Below are positions 5,241-64,000 of a stretch of DNA of 64,000 nt, in pieces. Made by a program: the position numbers and the translations under genes. Source of the DNA: Saccostrea cucullata (taxonomy: Eukaryota); contig NW_026940631.1 of NCBI RefSeq assembly GCF_032062105.1, forward strand, positions 558,001 to 622,000, written 5' to 3'. Every line of letters begins with the position of its first letter. The stretch's first letter is position 1. The notes beneath the pieces were generated by a model. The model had not been told where the DNA came from. It saw nothing but the letters and a program-made list of their open reading frames with translations, and did no database searches.

Positions 5241-5531
5241 GTAAGTAAAAAGTCGGAATAGTTTCATAAACTGAAATTATTTTTATACATTGATGTTTTG
5301 TTTAATATTTTTTTTCAGGAAATTATTTTGTAATGTCATAAGAAAATTTTCTATATACTATTATTTTAAATAAGAATAAAGCCACAGATTGTTTTATTAT
5401 TAGGTCATAAAGTTGAATACGCACAAAAGTGCAAACTGAATACATTAGAATTGCTCATTTTATCACGTTTTAGTTTTTAGAAATATCACTAAGCCTTACA
5501 TAAACGTTTAATTGTACTTTTTCAGTCCGCC

Positions 5532-8500
5532 ATGACAATCCTAAAGGGCTGTTTGATTTTCATAGTAATGGGATTAACTCATGGAAACCAGAACCCAATA
5601 TTTAAGGCTAACGGGAATATCCTATGGAAAAGTGACGGTTTTCAGTTTGTAGAAACCACTTCTACAACAGTCGGTGGAACGGCTTCACGATTTTCTACTC
5701 CTGTTCCAGTAGTGAAGGAAAGCATATACTCCATAGCCCCGGAAGATTGGACACGGGTAGGAGACAGTGTGTCAGACTTGAAAAATGTTCATTTAGAATC
5801 CATTGATAACAAAATCCAGAATTTAACGATAAATGAGTCGAAAGCTCGTGCAGATAACAATAATGAAGCGTCTGACGTTAACACCGTATCTCAGACAGAT
5901 AGGGATTCTGTTGCAAGAAGTCTGGAACAACAAAATATAAATATAGTCCGGAATATTAAAAACAGCACAAATGTGATCATTGAAGGTGCCGATATTGTTC
6001 TACAAAAAGTTGATTCAGGCAGTGATATGCTTACAGGAGAAAATTCAACAAAATATTTTATACCTTCCACTACAAGTCCAACACGCAACAGTGATTTAGA
6101 AACCCCAACCCACAATTCAACAAAAACTACTGCTGAAAGCGGTGACAAGTTGAACAGGTTGCTTTCAAGTCCTGGAATAAACGATATCAGCACAACGACC
6201 GTCACATACATTCCTGAAGAGAAAGTGTCCGTTGTAACAGAGACTGTTGATACAACGAGCCCAAGTAAATCACCTTCTTCAGCAGGATCCATTTCTTTAG
6301 ATTCTTTTGTCAACATGCTTTTGCCAAATGAAGTAAAGGATCAAGTAAAAAATAGGGAAGGTTTAAGGAAAGAAGCATTAGAACCAATAAATCCAAGTCA
6401 AACAACACAAAAATCAACCCAGAAGCCAGCAACAGTAGAAGTACCCACATCAAGGGACTCCACAGCACAAGAATTATCATCAATGGACACAACAATTCAA
6501 ACTTCAGTAATTAAAGAATCTACAACACAGGTTCCAACTATACAAGATAAAACAAGACCAGAACAAAGTATTCAAGAGAAAATAGTAAACCAGCAAATGA
6601 TTAAAGATATTGATAAACAAAATCTACCAATTCAAGGGAAAATCCGAAAATTTGGAAACATTACAGTGCCCCATGATGTGATCCTTGAGGGCCCAAATGT
6701 TGGTTTGCAGGAAGTTGTCTCCGAAAATGAAACTATAGAGATACAAAAATATACCACCAAAAGTCCGCAGTCAGCTTTTTCGACAAGTCAAAAACTTACA
6801 ACTGAAGAACTAACCACTCTTGAACCAACAACTTCAAACGCAATCACAACTGAACCATTTACTTCAGAAGCAACAACCCAAGAGCCAAACACTCCTGAAT
6901 CTGCAAATCTAGAACCCACAACTCAAGTTCCAATTTCTAAAGTGCCGACAAGTCCAAAATCAATCACTGAAGAGTTTTTCACTCCAGAACCCACCAATCA
7001 AGTAAAAACAACTTCAGAACCAACTACATATGAACCAACTACTGTTGAGACTTCTGCACAACCAACTACTCTAAAACCTACAACAAGAGAACAAACCACA
7101 TCTGAGCCAACAACGTCAGAACCAACTTCTCCCGTATTAACAACTACAGATAAATTCATTAAGGATACCTTTACTCAGGATACAACTTCTTTTAGACCTA
7201 TCACCTCAGACCCAACATCATCTAAGCAAACTTCTCCTGAGCCAGCAACTCCAGAAAGAATCGCCCCTGAACAAACAACTTCAAAACTAACTTCTCTAGA
7301 ATCTGCAACTAAAATCACTGAAGAATTTATAACTAAAGACTCAACCACACCTGAACCCACAACTCCAGAACCAACCACACCAAAACCCACAACTCCAGAA
7401 CCAACCACAGCTGAACCAACCATTCCCAAACCAACCACTCCTGAACCCACAACTCCAGAACCAACCACACCTGAACCAACAACTCAAGAGCCAACCACAC
7501 CAGAACCTACAACTCCAGAACCAACCACACCAAAACCAACAACACCTGAACCTACAACTCAAGAACCAACTATACCTGAACCAACAACTCCCGAACCAAC
7601 CACACCTGAACCTACAACTCCAGAACTAACTACGCCTGAAACAACAACTCCAGAGCCAACCACACCAGAACCAACCACACCTGAACCCACAACTCCAGGA
7701 GCAACCACAGCTGAACCAACAACTCCAGAACCTACAACTCCAGAGCCAACCAATCCTGAACCAACAACTACAGCATCAACCACTCCAGAACCAACCACAC
7801 CTGAACCCACAACTCCAAAACCAACCACACCTGAACCCACAACTCCAGAACCAACCACACTTGAACTAACCACACCTGAACCAACAACTCCAGAAACAAC
7901 CACACCTGAACCCACAACTCCAAAACCAACAACACCTGAACCCATAACTCCAGAACCAACCACAGCAGAACCTACAACTATAGAACCAACCACACCTGAA
8001 CCAACCACTCTAGAACCTACAACTCAAGAACCAACCACTCCAGAACCAACCACAGCTGAACCTACAACTATAGAACCAACCACACCTGAACCCACCACTC
8101 CAGAACCAACCACACCTGAACCCACAACTCTCGAACAAACCACACCAGAACCAACTACTCCAGAACCAACCACTTCAAAACCAACCACACCTGCACCAAC
8201 AACTCCAGAACCTACAACTCCTGAACCAACCACACCTGAACCTACCAATCAAGAACCAACCACACCAGAACCTTCAATACAAGAACCAACCACACCTGAA
8301 CCAACAACACCAGAACCTACAACTCAAGAACCAACAACACCAGAACCTACAACTCCAGAACCAACCACACCTAAACCTACAACTCAAGAACCAACCACAC
8401 CAGAACCTACAACTCCAGAACCAACCACACTTGAACCAACAACACCAAAACCTACGACTCCAAAACCAACCACACCTGAAACCACAACATCAGAACCAAC

Positions 8501-10956
8501 CACTCCAGAACCAACCACATCTAAACCCACAACTCCAGAACCAACCACACTTGAACCAACCACACCAGAACCAACCACTCCAGAACCAACCACACCTAAA
8601 CCCACAACACCAGAACCAACCACTCCAGAACCAATCACATCTAAACCCACAACTCCAGAACCAACCACACCAGAACCAATCACATCTAAACCTACGACTC
8701 CAGAACCAACCACACCAAAACCCACGACTACAGAACCAACCACACCAGAACCAACTACACCAGAACCAACCACACCTAAACCCACAACCACACAACCAAC
8801 TGCACCTAAAGGCACGTCTACAGAACCAACCACATCAAAACCCACAACTCCAGAACCAACTACTCTGGCACCAACAACTCGTAGTTACATAACTGCTAAG
8901 CCAGCAACTCTGAAACGTGAAACTTTTGAACCAGTAACATCTGTAACAACAACTACTCCCCCACCTCCTCTTGAAAGTATGACTTTTAAACAATTATTAA
9001 TACTTTCATGCTATTTTTTCTCAGTTTTAAATTTTCATACATTTTATTTTTCCTTCTGTTATTGAAATGTGTTATCAAATTTTATTTACAGCTTTGTGTC
9101 AAAATAGCGTTTTTATTGATGGCATCGGATATAACACATATCCAGGACAATGTAACAAAGTTGTTCAATGTTACTTCAACTACGATCAAACAAAAGCAGT
9201 TCTAAGAGAATGTCCAGCTGGGTTATTTTGGCATCAAGATCACGCCATGTGTAAATCGCCAGAAAAAGTGCCGTGTTACGATGGTATGATTTTTTTCCGC
9301 TATATCAAATTGATTTTTAATTTTTTTTTTTTTTTTTTTAAAGAAAAACAACAACAGGAAAAGTTTTTGTAAAAATAATTCTTCTCTACATCATGGTAGC
9401 TGTATACAAGTTTACAATGAATTGTTGGTTCTCTCAATTTTCAGATCAATGTCTCAATATTGGTGTGAATGCCTATGCAAGATCTGGTGGATGTAGGTCC
9501 TATTATTCCTGTGAAGCGGGAATTTCTGTCCCAGCCTGCTGTGATAAGGGATTCCGCTTTGATGGTCAAGGCTGTGTTCCGGACAGCTCTTGCATGGATT
9601 CCTGTGAAACTCCAGACGACTTAAGACGACGAGTAAATCAACAAAGTAAGTATTAAAATTGAATTTATCAGAGCATTTATCATTAAGTAAGTATTAAAAT
9701 TGAATTTATCTGAACATTCCCATATTAACACATCTAAAGAAAAGCTTTTGAGTCTTTTCTCTCTAAATATAGTGTGTAGGTTCCTACCAGATAGTGGCAA
9801 CCCCTATGGATATCTTACTCTAGAGCACAGTGGTCTTCGATTTAGAGCATGTCCATACGGGACAGCGTTTAGTGCCAGTCAGTGTATCTGTACTTGGAAT
9901 CCAACGCAAACCAGATCATACCCACAGCGAGAAGGTATAAATTTATCAAGCTTACAGTCGCATTCATATTCCTTTACAGCCTTAACAGCTTTCTTCAACA
10001 AAATAATTATACAAACTTTATTTCAAAGAATTCTGCTCATTTAATTCCTTTTCTCTCTCTCTCTCTCTTAAACAGTTTGTAAACCTGACTTTAAGATGAA
10101 TTTCGATGGAAACTTGTTCAGGGAACTTTCTGGATCCAACATGGCTTTCTACGTAGAAAACGCAGTTATTCAAAATGGCGCAGCAAAGTTCAATGGAAAC
10201 GGAAAGATTACTTTGTGGGGTTTTATGAACAAAGAACTTGGAGATGAATTTGCTGTTAGAGTTAGGTTCAAGCCACTCCAGACAGAGGGAGGGTACGGGA
10301 TGCTAGTTTCTAACTGTGGATATGAAGGTCTACCAACAGTAGAAATCTCTATGCAGGATAAAAAAGCGAGACTGGTAGCTAAAAGTTTGCATTCCAATTC
10401 TCCATCCATCTTAGAATATCACATAGTCGTAAGTATTTATTATTACATCTAAAACGGTTTTGTTTTATTTCATTTCAATATATTAAGAAGGAAACCGAGT
10501 AGGAATGAACTAGAATGCAAAAATATATTTCACAAGTTTTTCTAAATTCTTTATTTAAATTATGCAAAGGAAAAGCCCACTGCACAAAATTATTTTATTT
10601 CAAGCCATATGAATGGAATGAAATATCATATCACTACGATGGCAATACGTTTACTGCTGAAGTAAATGGGTACAGCATCTCAGAGAAACTTACTGGAGGA
10701 ATAGAGACGAGCTCGAACCCGATGTTTATAGGGGGCTGCCCCAAACCCGGTTCTGGATTCAATGGTTTAGTAGATAATGTAAGTATATGGATATTTCTAA
10801 ATTCTCTATGTCTTTAACTTTTCTATGTCAAACAAAGCAAATTTCGAAATATTTTCTTAGCTTTTACTTATACAATAACAGCTTCTACAAAAGAATGATT
10901 TTTTTCAGGTTGAAATTTACAGCAATTGTGTTCCTTCAAATTTCCTACAAAACTAG
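5532..10956 (+). CDS. Secreted mucin-stalk protein with three chitin-binding type-2-like Cys modules and a C-terminal LamG/ConA-like domain (Pif/BMSP-like), about 1524 aa. Coding exons 5532-8976, 9092-9283, 9445-9645, 9773-9934, 10076-10428, 10605-10778, 10909-10956
   Basis: Kozak-like tccgccATG and a signal peptide (MTILKGCLIFIVMGLTHG). All introns are GT-AG and join in frame (4575 nt). Cys modules include CNKVVQC..RECPAGLFWHQDHAMC, CRSYYSC..ACCDKGFRFDGQGC and RACPYGTAFSASQCIC. LamG-like segment: CKPDFKMNFDG..AKFNG..WNEISYHYDG..MFIGG..FNGLVDNVEIY. AATAAA at 11188. Confidence 0.88.
7344..8870 (+). repeat. Coding 15-bp minisatellite encoding roughly 100 PTTPE/PTTPK pentapeptides
   Basis: Units such as ccaaccacacctgaa and cccacaactccagaa are visible directly and the frame is never broken. 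Confidence 0.97.
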
Positions 10957-14879: not shown

Positions 14880-17800
14880 ATGGCTAGACATTGTATTGAC
14901 AATAACATAAAGAAGTTCAGAGATTTTACCTTTCTTCTTTTATTTAGTAAGATGCTTCAAGGTAAGATTAACCATAAATTATGTTCCTATCATTTTGGTT
15001 TTTTTAACTGCATCATCCTCAGGAAATTTAACTAGACTATGTCATTAAAGCATGAATCGGTTAGAAAGAATAAATCTCAAAACTGCAATAGGGTGTGCAG
15101 ACAAATTGGGTAGCGTCCATTAGCGGATTACGAAATATATTTACATTCCACATGTATATAACATGCATATATAGTCTGTGGAAAGCTACACATTCAAAAC
15201 ACCATGACACGGATAGAAATAAAGCAATCGTTTTATTTTGAAGGCACAACCGTTCAAAGGCGTGGTGGTACAACGTCATGAGCGAAAATTAAACCTCATC
15301 ACATTAAACAGAAGCTGATGAGATGGATCTTCCATTAAATGTAATTAAAAAGGAGGATAATACAGCGATTTTGGATATGAATATGCAAACAAAATTTTCA
15401 TAGCGCATTACTCAATTTGTTCGCACACACCGGTGCAGTTATGAGGTTATGTCTTTAAAAAAAATAACGAATCAATGCTTAATTGTTTGCATTTATCGTT
15501 GAAGTTATGAGATTTTATTTTTCCAAAAATAATCATCCAATGCTTATATTTTTATTTTTAAACTCTTTTCCTTGACTGCAACGTGATGACTTTAACTTTT
15601 CTATCGTCAACTGTCCTTACTTATGCGCAATATACCTTCATCACCTGCATATGGGGTTTATATATCTCATTTGAATCGATACGCATAAGTACGAAAGCCC
15701 AGAAGGCTCATTCGAGACATCGAAATGAACGAAATTTTCGAAAACGAGGATCCAAATTAACCAATCAAAAGACAGGTTCAATTTTGATTACTCCCCTTTA
15801 TTATGTTTTACTATCAAGAAATCGTTGAATATATTTATATAAAATGGGTCATTTGCTTAAATGATAATGCAAGAAAAAAAGATACATGTATTAAAACGAA
15901 ATAAAAAGGAATTTTAGGTTACATTTTAGAAAATATATATAAATTCTTATTTTTCCTCATTAAACAAAACAATAGATACGTATATAGATATATTATATGG
16001 TCTTATCGTTGAATTGCGCAATTCTTAAGTCGACATTTTTTTTCTAATAAGAACATTGATGAGGGAGATATTATTTACATGAAATAGTAATGAGGGTACA
16101 TTTTTTGCCCCCCCCCCCCAATAATTTTGCCGATATATAAACTACTATAGAAATCATAACTACTATATGCTTGCGCCCCCTCAATTTTGTGCCCCCTCTA
16201 TAAAAAACATCTGATGACTTTTTTTGCTTTGATTTTGGTTGTCAAGAAATTTTTGGTAGTAGAAAACTGAACATGTATGGCTGTGCATGAAATGAGCATA
16301 GTGGTTTTACTAGTATATTTGAGTCTTTGACCAAGTCGGGCGAGACCCGAGTGGTTTCCTTTTAAGTAATTATCGTATCGTAATTATCGCATTATTGTAT
16401 CTATGCATCGCAAGATTGACAATGAATGTTGATAACCACACATTTGCCCCCCCCCCCCCCACTTGGCCATTCCCGTAATATTTTTCCGATATAATATACT
16501 ATATAGAAAACAGTAACTTTATTTTTATGTCCATTCAAAAATAACTTCCAAATACCATGATAACCCCTATTTTTCGAGGTTTGATAGGGGGATTAACAAT
16601 GATTTTTTTTTTCAAATTTATTATTTCCAAGGGTCATTATCTTTATTAAGCATGCATGTTTCAGCCATCCGTATTTAAGGGGCTGTTTATTGGTTTCATA
16701 AACTTGGTCACTGGCCACTTTCTAATACCGTGTCACAAACACTGTCCACCTTGAAACCCGTAGTACTAATTATTACAGAGACGAAGCATCGATTTTGAAA
16801 GTGGGATAAGGGGGGGGGTACAAAAATATTATTTCAAACCTGAAAATAAAAACTGACAGAAAAAAATTGTCCAAACCCGAAAATCCTATTTCGGGGCGTG
16901 GAAGGGGGCGGGGAGGGGGGGGGGGGGAAAGAACTTCATTTAGTACCTAATTTCTTTTAATACACCACTACTTAAACTTCTTTGAATATACTGCACCACT
17001 GTAGCAAAACGTAGGGGGAGGGGGGGGGCTTGGCAACCTACCTTTCGATGAACATTTTCAATGGTAAAAAAAAATTATGTTTTTACTGTTAATCTATTTT
17101 AAGGTTACTATCATGTCAACAACCCTGTATATCCAAAGTAGATAACACGAAATATATATATTCTTTAAATAAATCTCTTATGACATTTAAGAAGCTATTA
17201 TAAATTAATTAAGCATATCTTGCAGACCAAAATCTGATATTTCTTTAAATTTCGTTTTGATAATATATAACACTTTTTCTTGCGTTGTAATTTAATCAAA
17301 TGACCTCCTCGGTATTAAAATATCAACGATTTCTTAGTAAAAAATAATAAAGGGGAGTAATTGAATCTCAAACCGCCTTTTGATTGGTTATTTTAGATCT
17401 TGAATCTCGAAACTCGAATTTTGAATCTCGAATTTCGAATCTCGTATTTCGAATCTCGAATCTCGTATTTCGAATCTCGAATCTCGAATGAGCCTTCTGG
17501 GCTTTCGTACATAAGCATACTCTACATATGAACAATTTCTAAAACGAGGTAAATTAGTGACAAACAAATTGTTGAAACAAGAATAATAATTCGTAAGTTC
17601 TACGGTCGATACAATGACCTTGTCAGCAAATACAATACTAGTATCTCATTAAGTCAAATGTTGACTGACGTTTTTCCTACTAATTGTTAGTCCATTATTT
17701 TTTCCCATTATTTAAACACTGAATTGACGACGGATTTTTCCGTTATTTCCCGATCATGACAAGGAGCACACAGCGGGTGTGACCGATCGGCAGGGGATGC

Positions 17801-20490
17801 TCAATCCTCCATGGCACCTGATCCCATCTCCAATGTTTTGGAGGTCTGTGTTTGCTCTACTCCTATTTTGTATTGTTTTATGGACTTTAGATCTGAATAC
17901 TGTTCGTTATCTCCATATGTTTCATTCAAAATCCTGGCATTATCCCTCTGGTAAGCTACAATTAAAGGAAGTGTGCTATTTCAACAGAGTCTGTTCAATG
18001 AGAGCGTGAATTTTACATTTCGCTTTTCGCTTATAACGCTTTGAAAGTTTGTGACGTAATTTGGTATTTTGAATGCTGTAGATAGCTTGCTACATTTAAG
18101 CAAAATAGATATTATATGGAATGTACATGTAAAAAAATAGCATATCCCAAACTTAGGCGTTGTCCTCCAAATGTACTCTTCTTCTTATTCGAATATCAAA
18201 AAAAGAAAGCACAATGATTATACAATTTGAAAAAAAATAGTTGTTTTTTTGCCCAAAATGTTCTCAGTGTTAAAATCGAAATTCCCAAATCACTTACAGG
18301 AATTATTTCAATGTATAAATGGGTTACTGAAGGGTTCAAGGAAGATGGGGGTTTTTTGGTAAAAAAAAACAAAACGACGTTTTAAACCTCCTTTTGGTCC
18401 CTTGGTCCCTAGCTAATCTACAGGACATAACTAAGTGTATTCTGAAACTTGAATGGCCTACATGTACTGCAAGAAATGTATGAGAAATTTAAGGAAACAT
18501 TTTTGTTAAAAAAAAAGAAAAACATTGTTTTGTGACCTCAAGGTGAGTATTTAAAAACCCAATTCAATCATCATAATATGAACGGACAACTGCCGAAAGC
18601 GTAAGATCAATTCAGAAAACCAGTTAGGTTTCGTAGGGAAAAAACAACACTGTTTAAACATTTATTTTTACTCAGGCTTGTCATCATGTTTGAAAATGAA
18701 AATTTAAATCTCTATTTATTTTTCGAAAGTTATATTATAATCATTAAAAGATATTAAACAAAACAGAAAAGTATTAAATTGATTATAAAAATATTATATA
18801 TCTTTTTTTTTTTGCTAAACCTTATTTTTTTCCTTTGTAGTATTTGGATCGCTTCATAATCTCCCCTGCCGCAGGACCGTGGATATCTATGGGTATGATA
18901 TACAGTGTCAAACCAACCACTCTATTTACATTGTAAGTCACGTGATAGAAGATGGATTCCAGAAGCTATCGCCACTTGACAGATTATTTGGATGTGATGT
19001 TAAGAATGCATTGGTATGTGGACAACATTACCCCATTAACTCAACAATCTCTGAGGACTCGGCCATCTTCAAGCGCGCAGTCAGCACCTGCAATGGAAAG
19101 AACATGTGTACGTTGAAAAAGAAGTATTTTGAAGACAGTGAGAATTTCTTTCGAAACGATTGTCCATCTCTTAAGAGTTATCCAAATGCGATGGTTCGTC
19201 AAAGTATTGAATATGAATGCATACAAGGTACGTTTAAACAATTTGTTGACAATATTTTTCTTTTAAATAAATAAATGAAAGAAAATATTGCATATGATGC
19301 TTGCAACTGAAGTATGTTTGCATCTGGATTAAAAAAAATTATGATCAAATCTAAAATTGATTCTCTTCAGAAAACGAGAGATCTGTCATCGATATGTGTA
19401 AATATCTAAATGTAAGTCGCAACGGAAACGTTTATATGAAGGCCAAGGGTCCAAATAAGATTTGCAGGTGTGAAATACAGGGGGTTGTCTCCGGATTGGT
19501 AATTCTGAGTTCCTACAAGACAATCATCACGACAAACCAGCGGTTCCGAAATCCTCCCGAAAGTAAGTAATTTTCTGTATAATAAAGTAGCTTAACTGCA
19601 CATATTGCATATTGAATAAGTTGAATTGCTGAAACTTTTTTTAAAACAGAGAAAGAAGCTGATATAGTATACGGACGTCATTTGTCGATAAGAACTGACC
19701 GTCTCTCCATTACTGTGAACTTGACATCTCTGGAAAGTATGATTTTTCTGAAAGTATTAATTGAAGGTATGTTGAGTACACTAATTTTTTTAAAAAAATC
19801 TTATAAGTTATGGCAATAATAGATTTAAGATATTGAAAAGAAATCAAAAATTAATAATAACGGCTGAAGGTGAGTTCGTATATCACTAGCTTTTATAGTA
19901 CATATATTTAAGTTATTTAATTTTTTTAAAGTATTCAATTTTTTCTTTACTTTACCTTGATGCAGAAAAAGTCGTACCTCTCGTCAGAGCAGAATCCATG
20001 GTCTTTATAACTGAGGCTCCGACTATCGACACAACCAAAATAAGTATAGAGGGAAACTACACCAAGACTGGATTTCTTAAATCACTGCTCTCTACAACTG
20101 GGTCAGCTGATTTGTCACATAATGTCCAAGTCAGTACTGACTTTGGAACTGACCAAGGTACTCGATAAACGTGACAGAAATGCAAGGAAAAGGTCAAAAT
20201 TATGTTCAGTAAATTATAAAGTCTGTGATATGCTTTGATAAGATGGACATGAAAGAATTTTAAATTAATTCATATTTACTTGAATGTTTTATAGGGCATT
20301 TAGAAGTGTTTAGGACAATTTACACTCTGTCCCTTCGTATTTTTTCATATTCTAGATAATCATGGGTGGTTGGTTACAGGTATTATTTTAGTTTTTCTCG
20401 TTGTTACACCTCTTTTCATCTGGAAATTGAAACCTCGAAAAAACAAGTAAGTATTGTTTTATTTGTACTATGAAAAACATATACAATCTC

Positions 20491-20542
<52 letters not shown>

Positions 20543-20856
20543 GGAAAGCTTAATAATGAATTGAAAAATTTGATAACCTAAAGTAATTTTCCCCCTTTCA
20601 TTTTGAGGATTAAGTCCACAGAAACTTCCGATAATGGAAAGATAGGGAAAATTTGACATCAGTGGAGAGCAGAGGAAAGGAAAAGATTCACTTGCAAGCA
20701 TCAACTGAAAAGCCACAAGAAGTTGTGTACACAAGCCTCATTACACAGACTGATCGTGTTACAAGTTATGATGAACCCGTTCTCTTTACATTGCCACCAT
20801 ATAATAAGTATATTGAAGTTCTTCCAGATTTGAACTGGACCACAGAGAAAATTTAA
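14880..20856 (+). CDS. Receptor A: type-I membrane protein (SUEL-like domain, second Cys domain, stalk, TM, ITIM-like tail). Exons 14880-14961, 18841-19227, 19371-19562, 19650-19766, 19966-20157, 20356-20446, about 20646-20856
   Basis: Signal peptide ..FTFLLLFSKMLQ|VFG with a TATA near 14850. 8-Cys exon ending QSIEYECIQ. IDMC..CRC exon. 117-nt exon 4 as in the paralogs. TM WLVTGIILVFLVVTPLFIW. Tail motifs VVYTSL, YDEP and YIEV. The last acceptor is uncertain: the stronger AGs at 20607-20621 lead to early stops. Confidence 0.72.
15575..17925 (+). mobile_element. Penelope-like 3' fragment split by the TIR element
   Basis: RDDFNFSIVN..IPSSPAYGVYIS remnant on the left and its continuation from 17510, including the gtgaccgatcggcaggggatgctc..ggcacctgatccc motif. 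Confidence 0.7.
15690..17509. mobile_element. 1.8-kb non-autonomous DNA transposon with TIRs and a 6-bp TSD, inserted into a Penelope-like fragment
   Basis: TIR tacgaaagcccagaaggctcattcgaga / tctcgaatgagccttctgggctttcgta. CATAAG at 15684-15689 and 17510-17515. Subterminal (TTCGAATC)-like repeats. Confidence 0.82.
20487..20540. repeat. (CT)n microsatellite
   Basis: Seen directly in the last intron of receptor A. Confidence 0.95.
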
Positions 20857-22548
20857 AAGTGAAAATTAATCAAATTTCAGTTCAAATGATTTTTTTTTTT
20901 GAAATTGTGAAATAAATGAAATAATATTCTATATCGATGCGAGGTTGCATGTGTTCTACCTCATTAAAGAAATGACATGAATTCGAAAACCCGATATTTT
21001 GTGACGCACAAAATCCTTTTCGAATGGAAGAAAAAGACTCAGTTACTATATACATGTATATCATGTTGATTAAACTTTCGTGGGAACAAAAGATCATGCC
21101 CTAAATCAACGCGAGGAATAGGTATACATGTATTTATTATATCAAATTTAACATACTGTATTATTGGATGAACCATTTGGAATAGCTATATATATGTACT
21201 ACCGGGGAAAAAAAGAGTGCACAATGCTGAAAGACTTCGATTGCTTAATTGTTATTATTGGATTTAAAAAAAAAAAACCTGGTATTCACATAAAACATAA
21301 TAAAAATATCGTAAGCATACGTTTTGCTGGTAAAAACTGCAAATAGCTCTTTAAATTCATACTCCTTAGAGATACAAGTGATTGGGTCTTCTGTGTTACG
21401 TGTAGATGTCACCTAAAACTGCCTTATACTTTTGATCAGGGGAAAATCAAAATAAATGCTATAGTTTATTTTCTATCTATTTGCAAAAACAGTTATAAAA
21501 ATCATCTCTTTAAAATTATAATTATATTTTTCTACTCTATAATTTCTTTTTTTATTTAATTCTAATATATTATCATTTTAAAAAAATTGCATTAAAAGAT
21601 CTAAATAATTCATTTCTGTATGGAGAATATTGGTCAAGCTGTATTGACTGACTATTTCAAATTCAACTAACAAAAATTAAACCAATCAGTTAACTCCCCT
21701 TATTTATGTTGCAATATACCATTATCATTTGCATATGGAATTAATGTTTCCCACTTAATTTGATACACAATAGTACGTTCTACATACAAACACTTTCTAA
21801 AACAAGGCAAGCTATTTACAAATAAGTTGATGATACAGAAATATCAACCATCTTGATTTAGCTCAATATTTCACAAAATCTATGGTCGATAAAAACACAT
21901 AGTCTTCTTCATGATGGATTGTTTCGGAGGTCCGTGTTTGCTCTGCTCTTATTTTGTATTGTTTTATGGATTTTGAGATTGAATACTGTTTGTTATCTCC
22001 ATATCCTTTCAATGATATTTAAGCATCAGAATGATTGATTACGATTAGCAATTAACCCCTTTCACTATTTTTTAAAACTGTTTCTTAACAAAAAAGCGGT
22101 GAAATAAAGGCCACAAAAGGTATAAATGATCATTTAAAAAGTATTTTGCGTCATATAACATTTTCCCACATCACTTTATTATCTTAAATTGAGTGATGCT
22201 TTATGACAAAGTTCGTGGAATCGTTCAACATCTGATATAGAAATGATCTACAATTTCCTCTTTTCAACAAGTTTAAATTATTTGAAAGTCAAGTGATGTC
22301 AAAGTAAGGTGCAAATATCAAGGAGTTATTCGGCAATTGTAGAGAGAACAGCTGGTACTTGAACGCGATCTTTTATTTCGGATTTAGACTTAATTTCCAC
22401 GCGTGGTTGGAACCTTTGAAATCTTCAAAGCTGACAAATTTGTATAGAGGTCGCATGTATAGTACCCCCGAAGCTGTTTCTATTTTAAAAAAGTCATTAG
22501 ACTTATTTTAGAGGTATTGAAGGGCGTTACATGTATTAGTGACTGACG

Positions 22549-25500
22549 ATGCTGCACACTTTGGAATTTATCATACTGAACTTTCTTTTGAATTTCAAAG
22601 GTACAGTATCATGATTTTTCAGCACTGTTTCCAATTGATCACATTGGATGTGGATAACCCAGCAAGGTTTCTCTTTTTCACTGTCATCTATCTGTATCTG
22701 CTTTCTAAATATTTATCAAATCTCATTCTATTAATATGTTTAAAAAACAGCTATCAGATTTTACAAAGTAGAAATAAATTATTTATTATTGTTGTATTCT
22801 ATTAGATGCCACACTTCTACTCCGTTTCACAAGACCAAGAAAATTATACTTGGAAAAAAGTTTCAAGTTTGCTTTTCATTTTGATTTAAATTACTGAATG
22901 GGTCATTTTTCTGAATGCTTTTATTCATTTTTTCAAAATTCATTCAAGATGAACATATTGATAAATTTTTTGTCGTTTGATTTTTGTATTTAAAGCTGAT
23001 TGTACCACGCACAGCTCCCCTTGTTTGGAAACACAGTACTGGAAAAAGTACGAAGTTCGATGTTCCGAGAATGAGACGATATATATAAGACAGCACAATA
23101 TTGGAGAAAGCTGTCAGGAGGAAGTTTTGGGATATGATGAAAAGAAAGTAAACTCTTGTAGTTACTCCTTACCGCTCAGTAAAACAATCACAGATTACCA
23201 GACACCATTTACAAAGACTGTAAATAAGTGCAACGGCAAAAGGGAGTGTGTCCTGTTCACGGATTACTTTGAAAAAATTGAATCAGAGAATGGCGCTTTA
23301 TGCAGAAACCCGAATACGTCAATATTTCAGCGAATAGAATATGAATGCATACCAGGTATTCCTAAACGACAATTTCTCATAACAATGATAATGTATAGCA
23401 AAAACCTAAAAATTTATCCTCTAAACTATTTTAATTTTTTTTTACAGATGTCTACGTAGTAGATAACTGTGTAAGAGAAGTGGACGTGGATAATCAATCT
23501 GAACTTCACGATATATATCTACGCTTTTCTGTGATGAATAGAAATCATTCTTGTCTTTTGATTGGCGAGCTATCAGGAATAGAAATTTTACATACCTACA
23601 GTTCTGTTTTGCGCCTACTTTACCAAAACCATCCTGTTTATGGTGAGGCTTCTTCAATTACAAAAGGGCTGATTTCGACTTCTACAGCAAACTTCAACTT
23701 AATAAATAACAACTTGAGAGATAAAACATGAATACTAGATTCTATACAGATAAGTCAAACTGAAATTTTCTATATCCGGATTCTTAAGATTGTAAAATAA
23801 AAATAAAACACAAACACACAATCACCTGTACACAATTGCATCTCAAAATTTATATTTACGCAACACTAAAATTCATTGAAAACATTTAATTTTTTTTTGC
23901 TTTTACAGAACACTTAGAGTCCAGTATTGGTTTGTATGGGGTGCAAATTTCTATACAGACAATTGGTCTTGTTCTCGAAATGCAAGGATTTGATTATAGT
24001 AGCATTACATAGATAATATATAAAAACTAATTGGTAAGTTGTTTTAATAGTTTATTACAACAATCCTTACATGGAAAAACGATTTCAGTGATTTTATATT
24101 TACATGAACATTGTTGAAGTCACCTTTGAAAAAAAAATACTTTTTCGGATATATCTAGTGAGAAAAATTTCAACCCGGCAATTTTTCAATTAGTAGAATC
24201 CTAAGTCATGATATATCTTTTAAAAATTAAGGAATTAATTGAATATAATCCATTGTAATTTTTATATTAATATGCGTATTTACAGAATAAAGGAAAAAAG
24301 GGGGTTTTTTTTTTGTACACTTTGTTGTGGAAAAAACCGGGTTTTTCTTTCGAGTTATACATGTAAGCGATAAATTTAATTTTTCGAAGAACATTTGGAA
24401 AGCAACGTTTTTCAACAAAGGATTATTTATTGTGTGCCTAACAAAAATTATTTTTTTAACTTTTGAATTTTGATATCTTTAAAAAGAAAAAGACTTTGGG
24501 ATATAAATTGACAAAAGTTTAAATAATTTATGGACAATTATTTTTCAAGAAGAAAAACGAATATATTTTTTAGCGATTAGAATCGGACCAAGCGGCTTTA
24601 AATGAAGCTTATTCAGTTACTAGTATATAAGGGCTGATTTCTCCTCCTACACCAAACATCAGCTCGATACATAACAACCCAAGAGATAATACATGAATAC
24701 TATGAATCTGTACAGATAAGCCAAACTGAAATTCCCTGTATCCTGAATACTTAAGATGGCAAAATACAAAAGAGCACCATCACCTGTACACAATTGCATC
24801 TCGAAATTATCTGATCATATATAAATTGTTAACTTTAAGAGTTCTTTTTTTTTTTGCTTTTACAGAACACTTAGAGCCCAGGATTGGTGTATTTTTAACA
24901 ATACAATATGAAGTTATATTTCGAAATGCAAGGGTTTGATTATAGTAGCTACGTACTTGTAAAACTTCTTGGTGAGTTTTAACTATTCTGACTAAGAAAG
25001 TTCTGTCGAATGGTTTGAAATTTTATATATTCCTTTCAAAGTACATGACATTAATAATTTTTTAAATATTTTATTTATATGCTAGTGAGAAAAATTTCAA
25101 GCGGCACATTACATGTCGGACCTTTTCATGAAAAAACTGAAACTGCCAAAGGTTCAGGTAAAGGTAGAGAAGTCGATTCTAGTACCCTAATGCTAAATTT
25201 AAAAAAAAAATGCTATTTGCATTTTTAACACCTGGTTTCTCTGTCATTTTCTTTTCCAGAAAATTTGGAAATTAACGTTTTTCACTGGATTCTCACTGTA
25301 TTTGCTGCCATAATAATTCTACTGGTATTATTTTTGATCTTCCAACGGAGGTAAACTATGATAAATTAATTAGATATTCAGTCATCGAGCAAGTAAAGTG
25401 CTACTATTTTAGTAATCAGTTGAAGAAGAGAAATTAATTTGTTTTCCCTTATTTTACATTTCGTGGGGTCAACACAATTACAGAACATATATGGGTTTTG

Positions 25501-26130
25501 ATTTTGAGAATTGACAAGCATAATTGAAGAACTAGACATTTACATTGAAATGTTCTGATCATAAATGTTTACTTTTTTCCTTTGCGTCTTATACACCCAG
25601 TTGTTCTATTTTTAAAAGTGAATATGAAGTTACATTTCCTTTTTAACTTGTAACAAAACATATTCAGTTTTCTTGATACTTTTTTTTTTCATTTTTTGTG
25701 ACATTTGCATTATTAATCGTTTAAACTAGAAATATTTCTTTAAAAGTGGGTTTCAAAATTCTCTAAATACATGTAGTAATTTTTAAATTTTTATTTTACA
25801 TCAGTTATATGTTGTAGTTGATGAAAACAACAATTTGTATTTCATCAGCATCAATATTTTAAAAATATTATAATTTAAGTGTGACAAGAATTTTAAGACA
25901 CATACTTCCAGTTAATTATATAGTCCACATTGATCTTGAATTTTAGAACTGAGTTAAGTGATGAACTATCTTTTACTAAAAGTTTAATATGTAATGATCT
26001 TTTTAAAAAGATAACTTACAACATTGTTCTGCCTTTGAAAACTCCAACACAATTAATTATTAGAGAAATGCCAAAAATTGACATTTACATAGAAATTGCC
26101 AGTGGTATTACAAAATGTTGTTATCAATGA
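22549..26130 (+). pseudogene. Receptor B: divergent paralog with a duplicated exon 4, both copies disrupted. Exons 22549-22600, 22996-23355, 23448-23642, 23909-24033 and 24866-24971, 25086-25157, 25260-25350, 25947-26130
   Basis: 52-nt signal exon MLHTLEFIILNFLLNFK, homologous to C/D/E. SUEL-like exon (CNGKREC..QRIEYEC). TM WILTVFAAIIILLVLFLIF. Tail ITYNIV and YIEI, joined in phase 2. The exon-4 copies are 125 and 106 nt, each with an in-frame stop. Confidence 0.68.
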
Positions 26131-27289
26131 AATATATAGAGAAAAAACAAAATGTTCTTCACTTTTGGCACACAACTGTAGTTCTGTCATAATCCACGTG
26201 TGTGGTTCTTGCGACAAAGCATTTCTTTATGTATCAAAATATTTAACTTCTTGGTCTTGACCTTGGAGTCTGAGCAAATTTTGCAAGAATTTGCCTAGCT
26301 TTATCCTTGGTCATAAAGTTTGAACACATGGTGCTATGGAATTCATGCTTCACGTGTATATTCATTGTCATTAGACCTTACATTGATATAAATATCTTTA
26401 ACTTTTGTTATTGGTAAACTTTTAAAAATCTTAAACCTTGGATATAGCTTTTGAACAATGATTACTAGAACCTTCATACTTTACATATGTATTCCATGTG
26501 ACAGTGACCTTGACCTTGGATTTTGACCTACTTTACAAAATTTTTCCTTGACCATAACCTTTAAATAGTGCTAAGAGTTCATACAAAAGTACAAGTATAT
26601 TTATTAAGAACAATTCTTTTCTTTTGGGTAACAACATTAAATTAATTCCTTGACCTTGGAGTTTCATTTGCATTTCAAAACTTCACCTTTGCCAAAAGTT
26701 GTCATACGTAGACATCAGTGTTTCACAAACACATCTTTTTTTGATAAATGTAATGCAATATAAGTTAATTGTGTAACTCCCATCGCATCATGTCTTGTAT
26801 AAACATATTAGAACTGTAAATAATGTTTCGTAATGGATGAGTCCATAGAGATTTTTTTTCCCTGGAATCAATGGTTCTAAAAGAGAACTCACTTAGAATT
26901 TACAAAATAAGCATTGTCCTTAACTTTGAACTAATTGGAACAGGTGTAAAAAAAAATATCTATTTTCGCTTGCATATAGATTCAGGAAATAAAGTGAAGT
27001 TGCATATGATCATATAAATCAAAGTCTAAAATTTCATAGAAATCCTTACAAAGACTAATTAACGATCAATTAAGCGGGTCCCATTAAATTTTCTACCGAT
27101 CCTATTTTTACTCCTACTCATTCAGAAAGTGTTGGACTTTTAAATCCTCTTCACATGACAAGGAAGATACCGTAATTGTTATATATAAATAACGCATATA
27201 TTTATATTATATATTCAAAATACGTTTTCCATTTTTTAACATTAATGTGATTTGCATGCAATAATTTCATCAATTTGATAAATAAAAGG

Positions 27290-52900: not shown

Positions 52901-53534
52901 AAGCCATACACATTTTTTCCAAGTAACAAAACATGGACACGGCCATTACACATGTATTCATGACATTATGTGAGACCAGGGGTATCATTTAGTGAGCTCA
53001 TTGCTCACAGTTCCTCTAGTTCTTTTTTAACATTGTAAAACTTATTAGGCGTTGTCTTTTCATTCATAAATAAACGTGCATGCATTCATTTTATATGATA
53101 GCATTTTTAGTTGGTCATCTTATTCTGAATGAGAAAATATCACTCAATAAAATTCTTTTTATCGTATTCTAAAATTGTAAACATATACACGTGTTTTTTA
53201 CAGAAAGGACAGAGATCTTCTCTTGGCAATTCTTCACAAACTAGAAGAGAGTGATCAAAGCGTTCAGGAGGAGCAACACTCCAAGACGACGGAGACAAGC
53301 CACATTCAGAGTACAGAAAGTAAAAAGAACTACCAGGAAATCCCATTGCAGTTCTTGAATTGTCCAAAGACCAAGCATCTCAGTAACCCTGTATACGAAA
53401 GTTCAAGTCAGGAAAATGTTTCATCTGAAGAGCAACATGTCGAGCTTTCAATGGCTGGCTCCATGGATGTGCAGAGTGGCCGATTCCTTTTGGAGAGTGA
53501 CAATGGAATCTATGAATTGCAAAAAAGATTCTGA
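43937..53534 (+). CDS. Receptor E: ectodomain nearly identical to C, with an unrelated TM and an NPxY-containing tail; frameshift in the stalk exon as assembled. Exons 43937-43988, 49088-49468, 49559-49741, 49945-50061, 50474-50606, 50894-50968, 52583-52673, 53204-53534
   Basis: Signal MYHTIGIIVFILIVDIQG. TM LFSSLFLFLGGVVLLVIFFLLLSVI. Tail NYQEI, NPVY and GIYEL. The stalk aligns with D only after a 1-nt shift near 50500-50518. Confidence 0.78.
44840..45922 (+). mobile_element. Helentron-associated non-autonomous element (HINE/pearl-like) with an internal tandem satellite of about 165-bp units
   Basis: 5' ttttagctcacctgaatcgaagactcaagtgagc, a (GTC/GTT)n microsatellite, repeated catcctcaggtagtgtagattca..tcaaatcatgaccc units, and 3' caggtgagcgatgtggcccatggg. 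Confidence 0.8.
46213..46386. mobile_element. Tc1/mariner-type MITE
   Basis: TA-cagtaaaactc..gagttttattg-TA with internal ttcgttata repeats. Confidence 0.65.
46900..48300 (-). mobile_element. Penelope-like retroelement fragment (RT C-terminal part and 3' region), interrupted by a TRIM
   Basis: Peptides MGTNCAPLLADLF..FRYVDDVLSINN and KLYDKRDDF..IVNFPYLCSNIPSSPAYG..SQLIRYARAC. Assignment to the Penelope-like group is from recalled family motifs. Confidence 0.75.
47323..47729 (-). mobile_element. TRIM (non-autonomous mini LTR retrotransposon) with tRNA-derived LTRs, Helenus-like
   Basis: Two 141-bp direct repeats (47323-47463 and 47589-47729) bounded by TG..CA. 4-bp TSD TTCA. On the minus strand: PBS-like TGGCGCAAACGTTGGG, PPT AGAGGGGGAC, and tRNA-like A/B boxes in each LTR. 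Confidence 0.88.
50090..50423. mobile_element. Short TTAA-flanked TIR element in intron 4 of E
   Basis: ttaaggtcagat...atcttaccttaa; absent from the homologous intron of D. Confidence 0.55.
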
Positions 53535-61510: not shown

Positions 61511-64000
61511 TTACTTACTTACTTATCCTCTCCGTGCCCCGGAGGACGCATGAGGCCGTTCAACAACGAACGCCATTACGGCGCTCACTGGCAACAACTT
61601 GTCCCTCCTTCTAATTGTTCTAGCCCAGTTCTTCTCTTTCTTTCTCTCTCAACAGGGTGTTCTTTGGCCGTCCTCTTTGTCTCTTTCCCTCAGGGGCCCA
61701 TGTGAGAGCTGTTCTACCATGCGAGTTCTCTTCCCTTCGGAGGATAAGGCCTATCCATCTCCATCTTTTTCTTTTGATAGTGCTTGATAGAGGTATGGAT
61801 CTTGTTCTTTCATATAGTTGTTGGTTAGTTATCTTTTCAGGCCAGTGTATTTTAAGGATCCTCCTAAGGCATTTTTGGTGGAATGTATCAAGCTTTTCGT
61901 TATCTTTTTCTGTTGTTATCCATAGCTCAGCACAATACAGCGACACAGATAGAACGTTGGTGTTGAAGATCTTAAGTTTGGTCTTTGTGTTGTATTGTGC
62001 TGACTTCCATACCTTGGCAAGGGATGCAAAGGCGGTCATGGATAAGCCTAGCCTTCTCCCAATATCTGCCTCGGTTCCTCCGGTCTTGTCTATTGTGGCA
62101 CCCAGGTAGAGAAATGTTTCGACCTCTTCTATTTCTTTATCATTCAACCTGATGGCATCCTTCTTCTTCACATTTATTCTCATGCTTTTTGTTTTATCGA
62201 CGTTAATTTTTAGGCCTGTATATTCAGCATGTAATCTCCTGGTTTTCTCCTGCATGTCGCTGTGTTTGCTGGAAATAAGTGCAAGGTCGTCTGCATAATT
62301 CAGGTCTTCTAAAGTGGACATAAATTTCCAACGTATGCCTCTCTTCTTATTGTTGGTATTTCTCATTATCCAGTCTACCACAATGATGAACAAGAATCCA
62401 GACATAACACAACCTTGTCTCACTCCTGTCTGTACTTTGAACCAGTCTGTTGTTCTTCCATTCTCTATGACACAACTAGAACTTCCATCGAATACTTTCT
62501 TGATGATATCCACGTACACACACGGAATTTCATACTGCCTTAGTATGTCCCACAGTTTCTCTCTTATTATGCTGTCAAAGGCTTTTTTAAAATCTATGAA
62601 ACTTATGTACAGTGATGCTTGCCACTCTATAGACTGTTCTAAAATATTTCTCAGAATGTAAATCTGTTCTGATGTTCCTCTTCCTCTTCGATATGCAGCT
62701 TGCTCTGGTCTTAATCTGTCCTCTAGTCCATCTCTAATTCTGTCGATCACTATTCTGCAAAATACTTTAGATAGCACTGATAGTAGTGATATTCCTCTAT
62801 AGTTGTCACATATTGTCAGATCCCCTTTCTTACGTATTTTGACAATGAGCGATCTCTTCCAGTCTGTTGGTATTTCTTGCTCACTGATGATTCTGTTGAA
62901 TAAATTTGTGAGCTCTGGTGTTGAATATGATACGCTCTCATTTAGTAGCTATGTATTGATGCTATCTATGCCAGGACTCTTTCCATTCTTCTTTTTTTAT
63001 TATTGCCTTTTTAACCTCCTCCTCTGTAACTGGTGTTGTGTCAATTTCTTCAATTTCATTCTCTTGGGTGGTGCATCCTTTGGGTAAATCTGTTGTTTCT
63101 GTTGGGACATTAAGGACCTCTGCAAAATATGCTCTTTCCATTTCTCCAATATTTTTCCATCCTCAATGATTAGTTCACCATTCTTGGACCTTATGCCACT
63201 TGTCCTGCTCCTTTTTCTCCCACAAAGCTGCTTTGACGGTTTGTATTTGCTGCATTCTCTGCTTGGTTAGCTACATCTTCCAGATTTTTCCTTTTATCAG
63301 CTCTTGCTCTTCTTTTCACTTGTCTTTGGTCTTATATTCTTCTGTCTTAATTTCCTTCATTCTCTCCGAATTTGATCTTCCTATTTCTTCCTTTAGTTTT
63401 CTCCTTTCATCTATGGCTTTGTAAGTTTCTGCAGTTAGCCAGTCTTTGTTCTTCCTTTTCTTCTGGCCCAGGATCTTTTTTCTGTTTCATTATATGCTTC
63501 TTTTACAAGAGTCCATTTTTTATTAATTGTGTTTTCGTCATCGACCAGTTGCTGAATCCTATTCCGTAGTTCAAGTTGGAATCCTTTGCTTATCTTTGGA
63601 TCTTTCAGCTTGTTGACATCATACATCTACCTGTTGCTTTCCTTTGGCTTTAAGTTTCTGCAGAGCTTCATCTTTACTTTAGCCAGTACTAGATGGTGAT
63701 CTGAATTGGCATCTGCACCTCGCATAACTCTTTCATCAAATACAGACTTCTTGTATCTGCCGTTCACCATTACATGGTCATTTGGTTCCTATCTCTACCA
63801 TTAGGTGACTCCCATGTAAGCTTGTGTATGTCGAGGTGCTTAAAGAGGGTTCCACAGATGATTAAGTTATTAAGAGCACACATTTCTGCTAACCTCATGC
63901 CGTTTTCATTCACAATCCCAATGCCCTCTTGTCCCATTGTCCCATGACTCTTTTCCATCCTTCATTCGACTTTCCCACTTTTGCATTTGCATCACCCATT
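61511..64000 (-). mobile_element. Degraded non-LTR retrotransposon (RTE-like LINE) with APE endonuclease remnant and reverse transcriptase; runs off the window edge
   Basis: RT motifs FIDFKKAFDS, GVRQGC and YADD. C-terminus ALTWAPEGKRQRGRP. Endonuclease remnant NENGMRL..TWESPNG. (TAAG)n 3' tail at 61511-61525. Several frameshifts. Confidence 0.9.

What the first reader, a model, noticed from the sequence alone, without database searches (positions are those of the whole stretch)
20646..26130. Receptors A and B carry ITIM-like tails; A also has a YDEP motif
Seen: the A tail has VVYTSL (VxYxxL), YDEP and YIEV; the B tail has ITYNIV (IxYxxV) and YIEI. A's three tyrosine motifs parallel those of C/D (YTSL/YTPL, YDEP/YTEL, YIEV/YLDV), but the middle one is no longer YxxL, which breaks the ITAM. 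Known: pYDEP is a preferred Nck SH2 ligand. Inference: these are inhibitory or cytoskeleton-coupled counterparts derived from a common three-tyrosine tail.
Basis: partly seen in the sequence, partly recalled or inferred. Interest (0 to 1): 0.7.

Follow-up and report, generated by a model that had tools for sequence, protein, structure and literature searches.

The report
Oyster receptor tails: one real, one transposon
In a five-gene oyster surface-receptor cluster, gene A's likely inhibitory tail motifs are conserved in a sister species but are cut off here by a one-base frameshift, while gene B's supposed inhibitory tail lies inside a transposon and is likely not its real tail.

Summary
The window is Saccostrea cucullata: five tandem single-pass receptors (A-E) with a predicted SUEL-lectin-like plus CUB-like ectodomain.

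The strong acceptor is 20608, and from it this assembly stops after 16 residues, before any tyrosine (RefSeq agrees). The tyrosine frame is still real coding sequence. The S. echinata ortholog reads VVYTSL..YEEP..YIEI and aligns without gaps, 42 of 80 identical, across a single 1-nt loss in an A-run at 20648-20651. Assembly error and young truncating allele are about equally likely. YDEP and YEEP both fit the Nck1 SH2 class.

B: not supported. The ITYNIV/YIEI frame lies inside a repeated element with 39 other scored copies. Both exon-4 copies are frameshifted, and RefSeq ends B before its membrane exon. B orthologs end in YIDM/YIEM, and a relic of that end (EELDIYIEMF*) sits at 25526-25558.

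A common three-tyrosine ancestry of A and C/D is weakly supported. No RNA data were listed.

The parts
14880..14961 (+). Gene A exon 1 (leader; RefSeq starts at the downstream Met, MLQV)
   Evidence: P0001
18841..19227 (+). Gene A exon 2, predicted SUEL/rhamnose-lectin-like fold
   Evidence: Pfam PF02140 E 0.24, under cut-off; structure matches
19371..19766 (+). Gene A exons 3-4 (19371-19562, 19650-19766), predicted CUB-like beta-sandwich
   Evidence: Z about 6
19966..20157 (+). Gene A Ser/Thr-rich stalk exon
   Evidence: low pLDDT 252-299
20356..20446 (+). Gene A transmembrane exon, phase-2 donor
20608..20856 (+). Gene A tail exon from the strong acceptor; 1-nt loss in A-run 20648-20651 gives stop TGA 20654-20656
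20722..20739 (+). VVYTSL, ITIM consensus, identical in S. echinata; out of frame in this assembly
20767..20778 (+). YDEP (YEEP in S. echinata), Nck1/Src-family SH2 class
20809..20820 (+). YIEV (YIEI in S. echinata), family-wide terminal Y-[IL]-[DE]-hydrophobic site
22549..23642 (+). Gene B exons 1-3 (22549-22600, 22996-23355, 23448-23642), open
   Evidence: P0009 = XP_062594334.1
23909..24033 (+). Gene B exon 4a, 125 nt, frameshifted with stop; RefSeq model ends here
24866..24971 (+). Gene B exon 4b, tandem duplicate, 106 nt, frameshifted with stop
25086..25350 (+). Gene B putative stalk exon (25086-25157) and transmembrane exon (25260-25350); in frame only if exon 4 is skipped
25526..25558 (+). 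Relic of B's native C-terminus, EELDIYIEMF* (YxxM); most of the roughly 100-aa tail exon is missing and two stops lie upstream in frame
25810..26181 (.). Left-truncated copy of a roughly 500-bp non-autonomous DNA transposon with about 80-bp terminal inverted repeats (MITE)
25947..26130 (+).
35422..35674 (+). Gene C tail exon, YTPL-x8-YTEL-x5-YLDV (ITAM consensus)
42697..42949 (+). Gene D tail exon, same motifs; RefSeq XP_062594289.1
53204..53534 (+). Gene E tail exon, third tail type (NYQEI, VYES, IYEL); RefSeq XP_062594335.1

Best explanation
Gene A is a single-pass oyster receptor whose conserved three-tyrosine tail likely signals by recruiting an inhibitory phosphatase and a Nck-type adaptor, but in this assembly that tail is cut off by a one-base frameshift, and gene B's 'ITIM tail' is transposon sequence that is likely not translated. 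Shown: exon anatomy, the frameshift, motif conservation in S. echinata, the repeat under B's frame, B's broken exon-4 copies and the relic of its YxxM end. Inferred: ligand binding by the lectin-like/CUB-like ectodomain clusters A; a Src-family kinase phosphorylates the tail; pY-TSL and pY-IEV/I, 27 residues apart, bind the tandem SH2 domains of an SHP2-type phosphatase (or SHIP); pY-[DE]EP binds Nck or the Src kinase itself. This would damp or redirect the ITAM signal of C/D. The break is an assembly slip or a young truncating allele, about even odds. B is a decaying gene giving at most a secreted or short-tailed product.
For: Ortholog tail ungapped, 42 of 80 identical with one -1 break. After the break, motif windows are 13 of 18 identical against 20 of 46 elsewhere (Fisher p 0.036), and Y, +3 positions are 5 of 6 identical plus V/I. 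67 codons after the break have no stop. Acceptor strengths and RefSeq end. Nck1 class pY-[D/E]-[E/L]-[P/V] and Dok1 pYDEP binding to Nck1 (PMC3514216 passages). Oyster CgNCAM1 with two ITIMs interacts with CgSHIP2 (PMC11841013 passages). B: 39 other repeat copies among 40 scored of 385 candidates. 37 of 39 keep the same AG and all 37 stop within 4-7 codons. Relic scores above 272 of 272 control windows with the C. virginica end and 271 of 272 with P0051. Tail-profile p is 0.004 for the relic frame and 0.12 for the MITE frame. RefSeq B is 236 aa with no membrane segment.
Against: A-type tails were seen in only two congeneric species, and the S. echinata record is a predicted model that fuses A to B exons 2-3. 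ITIM-like hexamers are common by chance (164 in 45,349 residues). The same array table puts pY-[D/E/G]-[D/E]-P in the Lck, Lyn and Hck classes, and the PTPN11_N class is only partly met by YIEV. No binding, phosphorylation or expression was tested. For B, the window copy is the only one of 40 with more than 7 open codons from that AG, its middle is unusually diverged (47% against 85% in the flanks), and it shares a 16/17 stretch with the relic. Plain decay does not explain this. The relic frame was chosen after the match was seen.
Confidence: 0.62

Rival explanations
1. A's truncation is real and functional: S. cucullata A is a tail-less decoy receptor (16-aa cytoplasmic end) that binds ligand without signalling, and the tyrosine frame is a young pseudo-exon.
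For: RefSeq ends there and its name carries no low-quality flag. 8 of 10 HSP70 matches in this assembly are full-length and open, and no single-base loss was seen in the five copies closely alignable to L053 (L054, L055, L057, L061, L062; L061 has a 2-nt loss and a stop), so the assembly is not grossly noisy. B and C in the same cluster carry multi-base lesions.
Against: A 1-nt loss in a homopolymer is the typical long-read error (own knowledge). The downstream frame has no second lesion in 67 codons despite about 48% protein divergence from S. echinata. No second haplotype copy was found to compare.
Confidence: 0.3
2. B has swapped tails: it skips exon 4, lost its YxxM tail and now splices into the MITE, gaining an ITIM-like ITYNIV and a YIEI end (317-aa receptor).
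For: Exon-4 skipping gives a complete open frame to 26130. A C. virginica isoform also lacks the exon-4 segment. This is the only one of 40 copies open beyond 7 codons, and it diverges most where the motifs lie. Segment 26005-26100 resembles the relic more than 735-736 of 736 control windows.
Against: 7 of 40 non-coding stretches give such a frame by chance. The frame is not significantly like family tails (p 0.12). RefSeq ends B in exon 4a, and the S. echinata model also ends after B exon 3. The acceptor is the unmodified repeat sequence.
Confidence: 0.08
3. One reading: A splices to 20646 and makes the full tyrosine tail minus 13 residues.
For: It is in frame.
Against: The acceptor has 6 of 17 pyrimidines, below all 27 confident acceptors. 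The ortholog keeps the 13 upstream residues in register. RefSeq uses 20608.
Confidence: 0.05
4. A's tail is a non-immune adaptor platform (adhesion or guidance), with the Y sites serving SHP2 and Nck in positive signalling rather than inhibition.
For: Nearest folds include latrophilin lectin domains and CUB domains of Kremen, neuropilin and Neto. SHP2 can activate (own knowledge). No expression data point to haemocytes.
Against: Tandem cluster with ITAM-bearing paralogs, ectodomain homogenisation between C and E and fast decay resemble immune receptor loci.
Confidence: 0.25

Closest known systems
Hydractinia Alr family (PMC9546547; passages seen)
   Same: Clustered invertebrate single-pass receptors with one exon per domain, tails more divergent than ectodomains, some ITAM and some ITIM, mixed with frameshifted pseudogenes.
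   Different: Alr ectodomains are Ig/Fn3-like; here they are predicted SUEL-like plus CUB-like. Five genes found here, and no allorecognition evidence.
Oyster CgNCAM1-CgSHIP2 (PMC11841013; passages seen)
   Same: An oyster receptor tail with ITIMs, reported to interact with an SH2 phosphatase and inhibit inflammatory genes.
   Different: IgSF ectodomain. A has one consensus ITIM plus Y[DE]EP and YIE[VI], and is untested.
Vertebrate paired receptors, Siglec-5/14, Siglec-11/16, PILRa/b (PMC13358205; passages seen)
   Same: Linked genes with near-identical ectodomains and different tails. C and E here are 93-97% identical over exons 2-4 and introns but 55% and 43% in membrane and tail exons.
   Different: A is only 47-50% identical to C/D/E in exon 2, so it is not a strict pair. 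The ITAM here is in the receptor's own tail, not on DAP12.
Dok1 pY362 (YDEP)-Nck1 (PMC3514216 passages; PMC2172353 one passage and start of abstract)
   Same: The same pY-D-E-P core; YEEP also fits the Nck1 class.
   Different: Dok1 is a cytosolic adaptor. The site also binds Blk, Hck, Lck, Lyn, Src, Shc1 and Abl1 on arrays.
SUEL/rhamnose-binding lectin domain (latrophilin Lec, SUL-I, CSL3)
   Same: The predicted fold of residues about 4-134 matches at Z 5.7-6.5; Foldseek probability 0.91-1.0 for LAT-1 Lec and SUL-I.
   Different: Under the Pfam cut-off (12.2 against 31.4 bits); 11-17% identity; sugar binding untested.

Membership tests
ITIM receptor (gene A) | [I/L/V/S]xYxx[I/V/L] hexamer | tested here: met
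   VVYTSL in both species; definition from PMC9546547
ITIM receptor (gene A) | Motif in frame behind the membrane segment | tested here: inconclusive
   Not met in this assembly or RefSeq; met in the S. echinata model; the break is one base
ITIM receptor (gene A) | Phosphorylation and SHP/SHIP recruitment with inhibitory output | not testable with these tools
   Needs binding and cell assays
ITIM receptor (gene B) | ITIM in the native tail | tested here: not met
   Ortholog tails P0048 and P0051 end DIYIDM and ELYIEM, and their tyrosine hexamers include no ITIM; the relic is DIYIEM; ITYNIV is in a repeat
ITIM receptor (gene B) | Intact receptor reading frame | tested here: inconclusive
   Both exon-4 copies are broken; open only if exon 4 is skipped; RefSeq ends before the membrane exon
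Nck SH2 ligand | pY-[D/E]-[E/L]-[P/V] | tested here: met
   YDEP and YEEP; also fits the Lck, Lyn and Hck classes
Nck SH2 ligand | Binding of oyster Nck | not testable with these tools
   Needs phosphopeptide assays
ITAM (A) | Yxx[I/L]x(6-9)Yxx[L/I] | tested here: not met
   The middle site ends in P in both species; met by C/D, YTPL-x8-YTEL
Paired receptors | Linked genes with near-identical ectodomains and different tails | tested here: inconclusive
   Met for C/E; not for A against C/D/E (47-50%)
Paired receptors | Opposite signalling outputs on a shared ligand | not testable with these tools
   No functional data
SUEL/RBL lectin | Pfam PF02140 above its cut-off | tested here: not met
   12.2 bits against 31.4 for A exon 2; no hit for B or C exon 2
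SUEL/RBL lectin | SUEL fold | tested here: inconclusive
   The top structural matches for this domain are SUEL domains, but Z is 6.5 or less
SUEL/RBL lectin | Galactose/rhamnose binding | not testable with these tools
   Needs glycan assays
MITE (Tc1/mariner-like) | Short, many dispersed copies, terminal inverted repeats, TA flanks | tested here: met
   About 500 bp with about 80-bp arms 90-94% alike; TA on both sides in 6 of 9 aligned copies; 39 other loci. The superfamily label is recalled, from the TA flanks and CAG ends.

The most novel reading that the evidence does not exclude
A transposon has rebuilt a receptor's signalling tail: after B lost its YxxM (PI3K-type) tail, it began skipping exon 4 and splicing into a neighbouring MITE that was patched with the old tail's last tyrosine motif and gained an ITIM, flipping an activating receptor to an inhibitory one inside an undescribed molluscan lectin-CUB paired-receptor locus.
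Probability: 0.08. Interest if true: 0.78.

Novelty: new variant of a known kind. Interest (0 to 1): 0.4.

Why it matters
If A is intact in most oysters, this cluster is a compact molluscan receptor locus that puts four tail types behind one non-immunoglobulin ectodomain: ITIM plus Nck-class (A), YxN plus YxxM (B type), ITAM (C/D) and a fourth (E), with ectodomain exchange between C and E. That would extend activating/inhibitory receptor logic to a lectin-CUB scaffold and give directly testable SH2 partners in a farmed animal group. ITIM signalling in oysters and ITAM/ITIM clusters in invertebrates are already reported, so the principle is not new. The practical lessons are that RefSeq models A and B are truncated, and that a motif-bearing 'last exon' can be a transposon.

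Tried and rejected
RNA evidence: no RNA holder was listed for 18700-26300, so no reads could be laid; this is no evidence either way.

Second haplotype: protein and DNA searches of the own genome with the A tail and the B membrane/relic region found only the window itself. Exon-2 searches found only the five genes here (counts are lower bounds).

Pairwise test of A against C/D tails: not significant (A of S. cucullata against C and D, p 0.68-0.72). S. echinata A scores p 0.012 against O. edulis and p 0.004 against the unrelated E tail, so pairwise scores cannot carry the ancestry claim. The C row was misframed and was corrected.

A MITE subfamily carrying the motifs: segment 25990-26110 found only itself. 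The relic as a MITE fragment: mostly not significant (p 0.05-0.62 at two gap settings; 2 of 7 copies under 0.05 at the third).

Ectodomain tree: A and B form separate supported clades. The D row had a misframed exon 4, and two outgroups are long branches, so deeper order is not claimed.

Foldseek top rows (botulinum HA70, Cry proteins; rmsd over 15, probability 0.33 or less for the top three) were rejected as generic beta-sandwich noise.

Literature: six locus ids of family members gave 0 papers. A SUEL/lectin/transmembrane/bivalve/ITAM search listed 15 of 24 papers, none on this family by title or start of abstract. No paper on the assembly itself was among 9 listed. Supplements were not opened and may list these genes. 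No earlier scan notes near this place. No complex prediction was run, since phosphotyrosine binding cannot be modelled with it.
Full report
Setting. Exon 2 of gene A matches RefSeq XP_062594332.1 of Saccostrea cucullata letter for letter. Searches of the own genome with A and B exon 2 each return five matches, all in this window (lower bounds). The genes share one exon plan: leader, a Cys-rich exon, two exons for a second domain, a stalk, a membrane exon ending in phase 2, and one tail exon. An AlphaFold model built on 24 family sequences (mean pLDDT 77) matches SUEL-lectin domains for residues about 4-134 and CUB/GOLD-type sandwiches for about 133-250, at Z 5-6.5, which is middling. Pfam SUEL stays under its cut-off. 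A profile search of 1.84 billion representatives gave 36 hits. Of ten looked up, the eight named ones are oysters (Saccostrea, Ostrea, Crassostrea/Magallana), all called uncharacterized.

Gene A, observation. VVYTSL, YDEP and YIEV lie in one frame, 20635-20853. Only acceptors 20646, 20670 and 20673 join this frame to the membrane exon. They have 6-7 pyrimidines in 17 bases, against 8-15 for 27 confident acceptors and 16 for 20608. Acceptor 20608 gives KIKSTETSDNGKIGKI and a stop, which is the RefSeq end. Whether RNA supports that RefSeq junction I could not see.

Gene A, what it is. The S. echinata ortholog XP_061162922.1 reads KMMSTDTSDSTKKGKNLTSVE on into VVYTSL, YEEP and YIEI. With the window read from 20608 and an X at one -1 break, the two tails align with no gap, 42 of 80 identical. 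The best break is at 20648-20653, a run of four A where the ortholog's G-K-N-L implies five. After the break, the six-residue motif windows are 13 of 18 identical against 20 of 46 elsewhere (p 0.036), and no stop occurs in 67 codons. The break is therefore recent or artefactual. No second haplotype copy was found. As a noise check, 8 of 10 HSP70 matches are full-length and open, and no single-base loss appeared in five closely alignable copies. This leans slightly towards a real allele, while the homopolymer context leans towards a sequencing slip (own knowledge). I put it at about even.

Motif reading for A. VVYTSL meets the ITIM definition used in PMC9546547 (passages). YDEP is not invariant, but YEEP fits the same published Nck1 class pY-[D/E]-[E/L]-[P/V]; the same table lists Dok1 pYDEP as an Nck1 ligand and shows Lck, Lyn and Hck classes that fit too (PMC3514216 passages). 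YIEV/YIEI meets the +1 and +3 positions of that table's PTPN11 N-SH2 class but not +4. The 27-residue Y1-Y3 distance resembles tandem-SH2 phosphatase ligands (own knowledge). An oyster ITIM receptor acting through CgSHIP2 is reported (PMC11841013 passages). The mechanism is inferred throughout; nothing was bound or expressed here.

Common ancestry with C/D. Pairwise scores are not significant. This is weak support. B-type and C/D tails are more clearly related to each other (probability 87%). A C. gigas protein of the C/D tail type has SNYTSL and has lost the middle tyrosine (P0008), so an ITAM-to-ITIM-like change is seen within the family. A's ectodomain forms its own supported clade with two short relatives and is 47-50% identical to C/D/E in exon 2.

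Gene B. Exon 4 is duplicated (125 and 106 nt against 117 in C). Both copies shift frame and stop, through multi-base indels. RefSeq XP_062594334.1 ends in the first copy at 236 aa, and the S. echinata model ends after exon 3. Skipping exon 4 would keep the frame. The proposed tail exon lies inside a dispersed repeat: 39 other loci among 40 scored of 385 candidates, 72-87% identical. It is about 500 bp long with about 80-bp inverted ends and TA flanks in 6 of 9 aligned copies, and the window copy spans 25810-26181. 37 of 39 copies keep the same AG and all 37 stop within 4-7 codons. In 7 of 40 non-coding control stretches a frame of 61 or more residues with an ITIM-like hexamer follows some YAG in phase 2.

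B's native tail. Two full-length B-type proteins (C. virginica LOC111137613 and unnamed P0051) have tails of 104 and 96 residues, with YQNV or YENS and ends EEMDIYIDMLPCA and EEELYIEMVPSA. The window holds EELDIYIEMF and a stop at 25526-25558, 175 bases after B's membrane donor. It outscores 272 of 272 and 271 of 272 control windows, and its frame scores p 0.004 against the family tail profile, against 0.12 for the MITE frame (the frame was chosen after the match). Two in-frame stops precede it and most of the exon is gone. YENS fits the GRB2 class. YxxM as a PI3K p85 motif is recalled, and the +1/+2 residues do not match that table's PI3K classes. B's native type is thus more likely stimulatory than inhibitory.

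Unexplained. The middle of the window's MITE copy (26005-26100) is 47% like the family majority against 85-86% in the flanks. Only one of the 39 other copies is about as low there (L052, 49%, a partial match). It resembles both the MITE middle and the relic (z 4.0-6.5; 0-1 of 736 control windows as high), including a 16/17 match found nowhere else in the window. A templated repair patch, an assembly mosaic and selection on an exonised tail all remain open. I give the last 8%.

Verdict. I found no paper on it: 0 hits for six locus ids and none by title or start of abstract; supplements unseen. New variant of a known kind; interest 0.4.

Noticed in passing
window 31550-32523 (C) and 49088-50061 (E): C and E are 93-97% identical over exons 2-4 and both introns but 55% and 43% in membrane and tail exons; C and D are 65-86% there but 87-90% in membrane and tail. 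This points to gene conversion or a recombinant gene, the paired-receptor signature. Two Magallana proteins with sister ectodomains also carry different tail types (P0008, P0040).
   Followed up: partly
window 32610-32913: C's stalk exon has three short deletions against D (10 nt in all), which shift its frame. C reaches its ITAM tail only if this exon is skipped or spliced differently.
   Followed up: partly
window 50474-50606 and 52583-53534: E's stalk exon shifts frame from the D-like acceptor; RefSeq XP_062594335.1 uses another acceptor and an extra exon. Its tail matches that of C. virginica LOC111136863 (44%).
   Followed up: partly
window 23643-24200 and 24600-25170: Tandem duplication inside B of intron 3, exon 4 and the start of the stalk exon.
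   Followed up: yes
P0002 (S. echinata XP_061162922.1): The model fuses A's second half to B exons 2-3, which shows the same gene order but is probably a prediction artefact.
   Followed up: partly
window 5493-10900: An upstream gene with a 1190-codon Thr/Pro/Glu-rich repetitive exon followed by Cys-rich and globular exons; it looks like a mucin-like chitin-binding or shell-matrix protein (recalled). No Pfam hit for the two exons scanned.
   Followed up: no
window 61620-64000 (- strand): A decayed LINE-like reverse transcriptase element, judged from its translation (442-aa frame).
   Followed up: no
P0026, P0033, P0041: Distant family members (O. edulis and one unnamed record) with other tyrosine tails (NIYSEI; DVYAAV, DIYATV), suggesting a wider family.
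   Followed up: no
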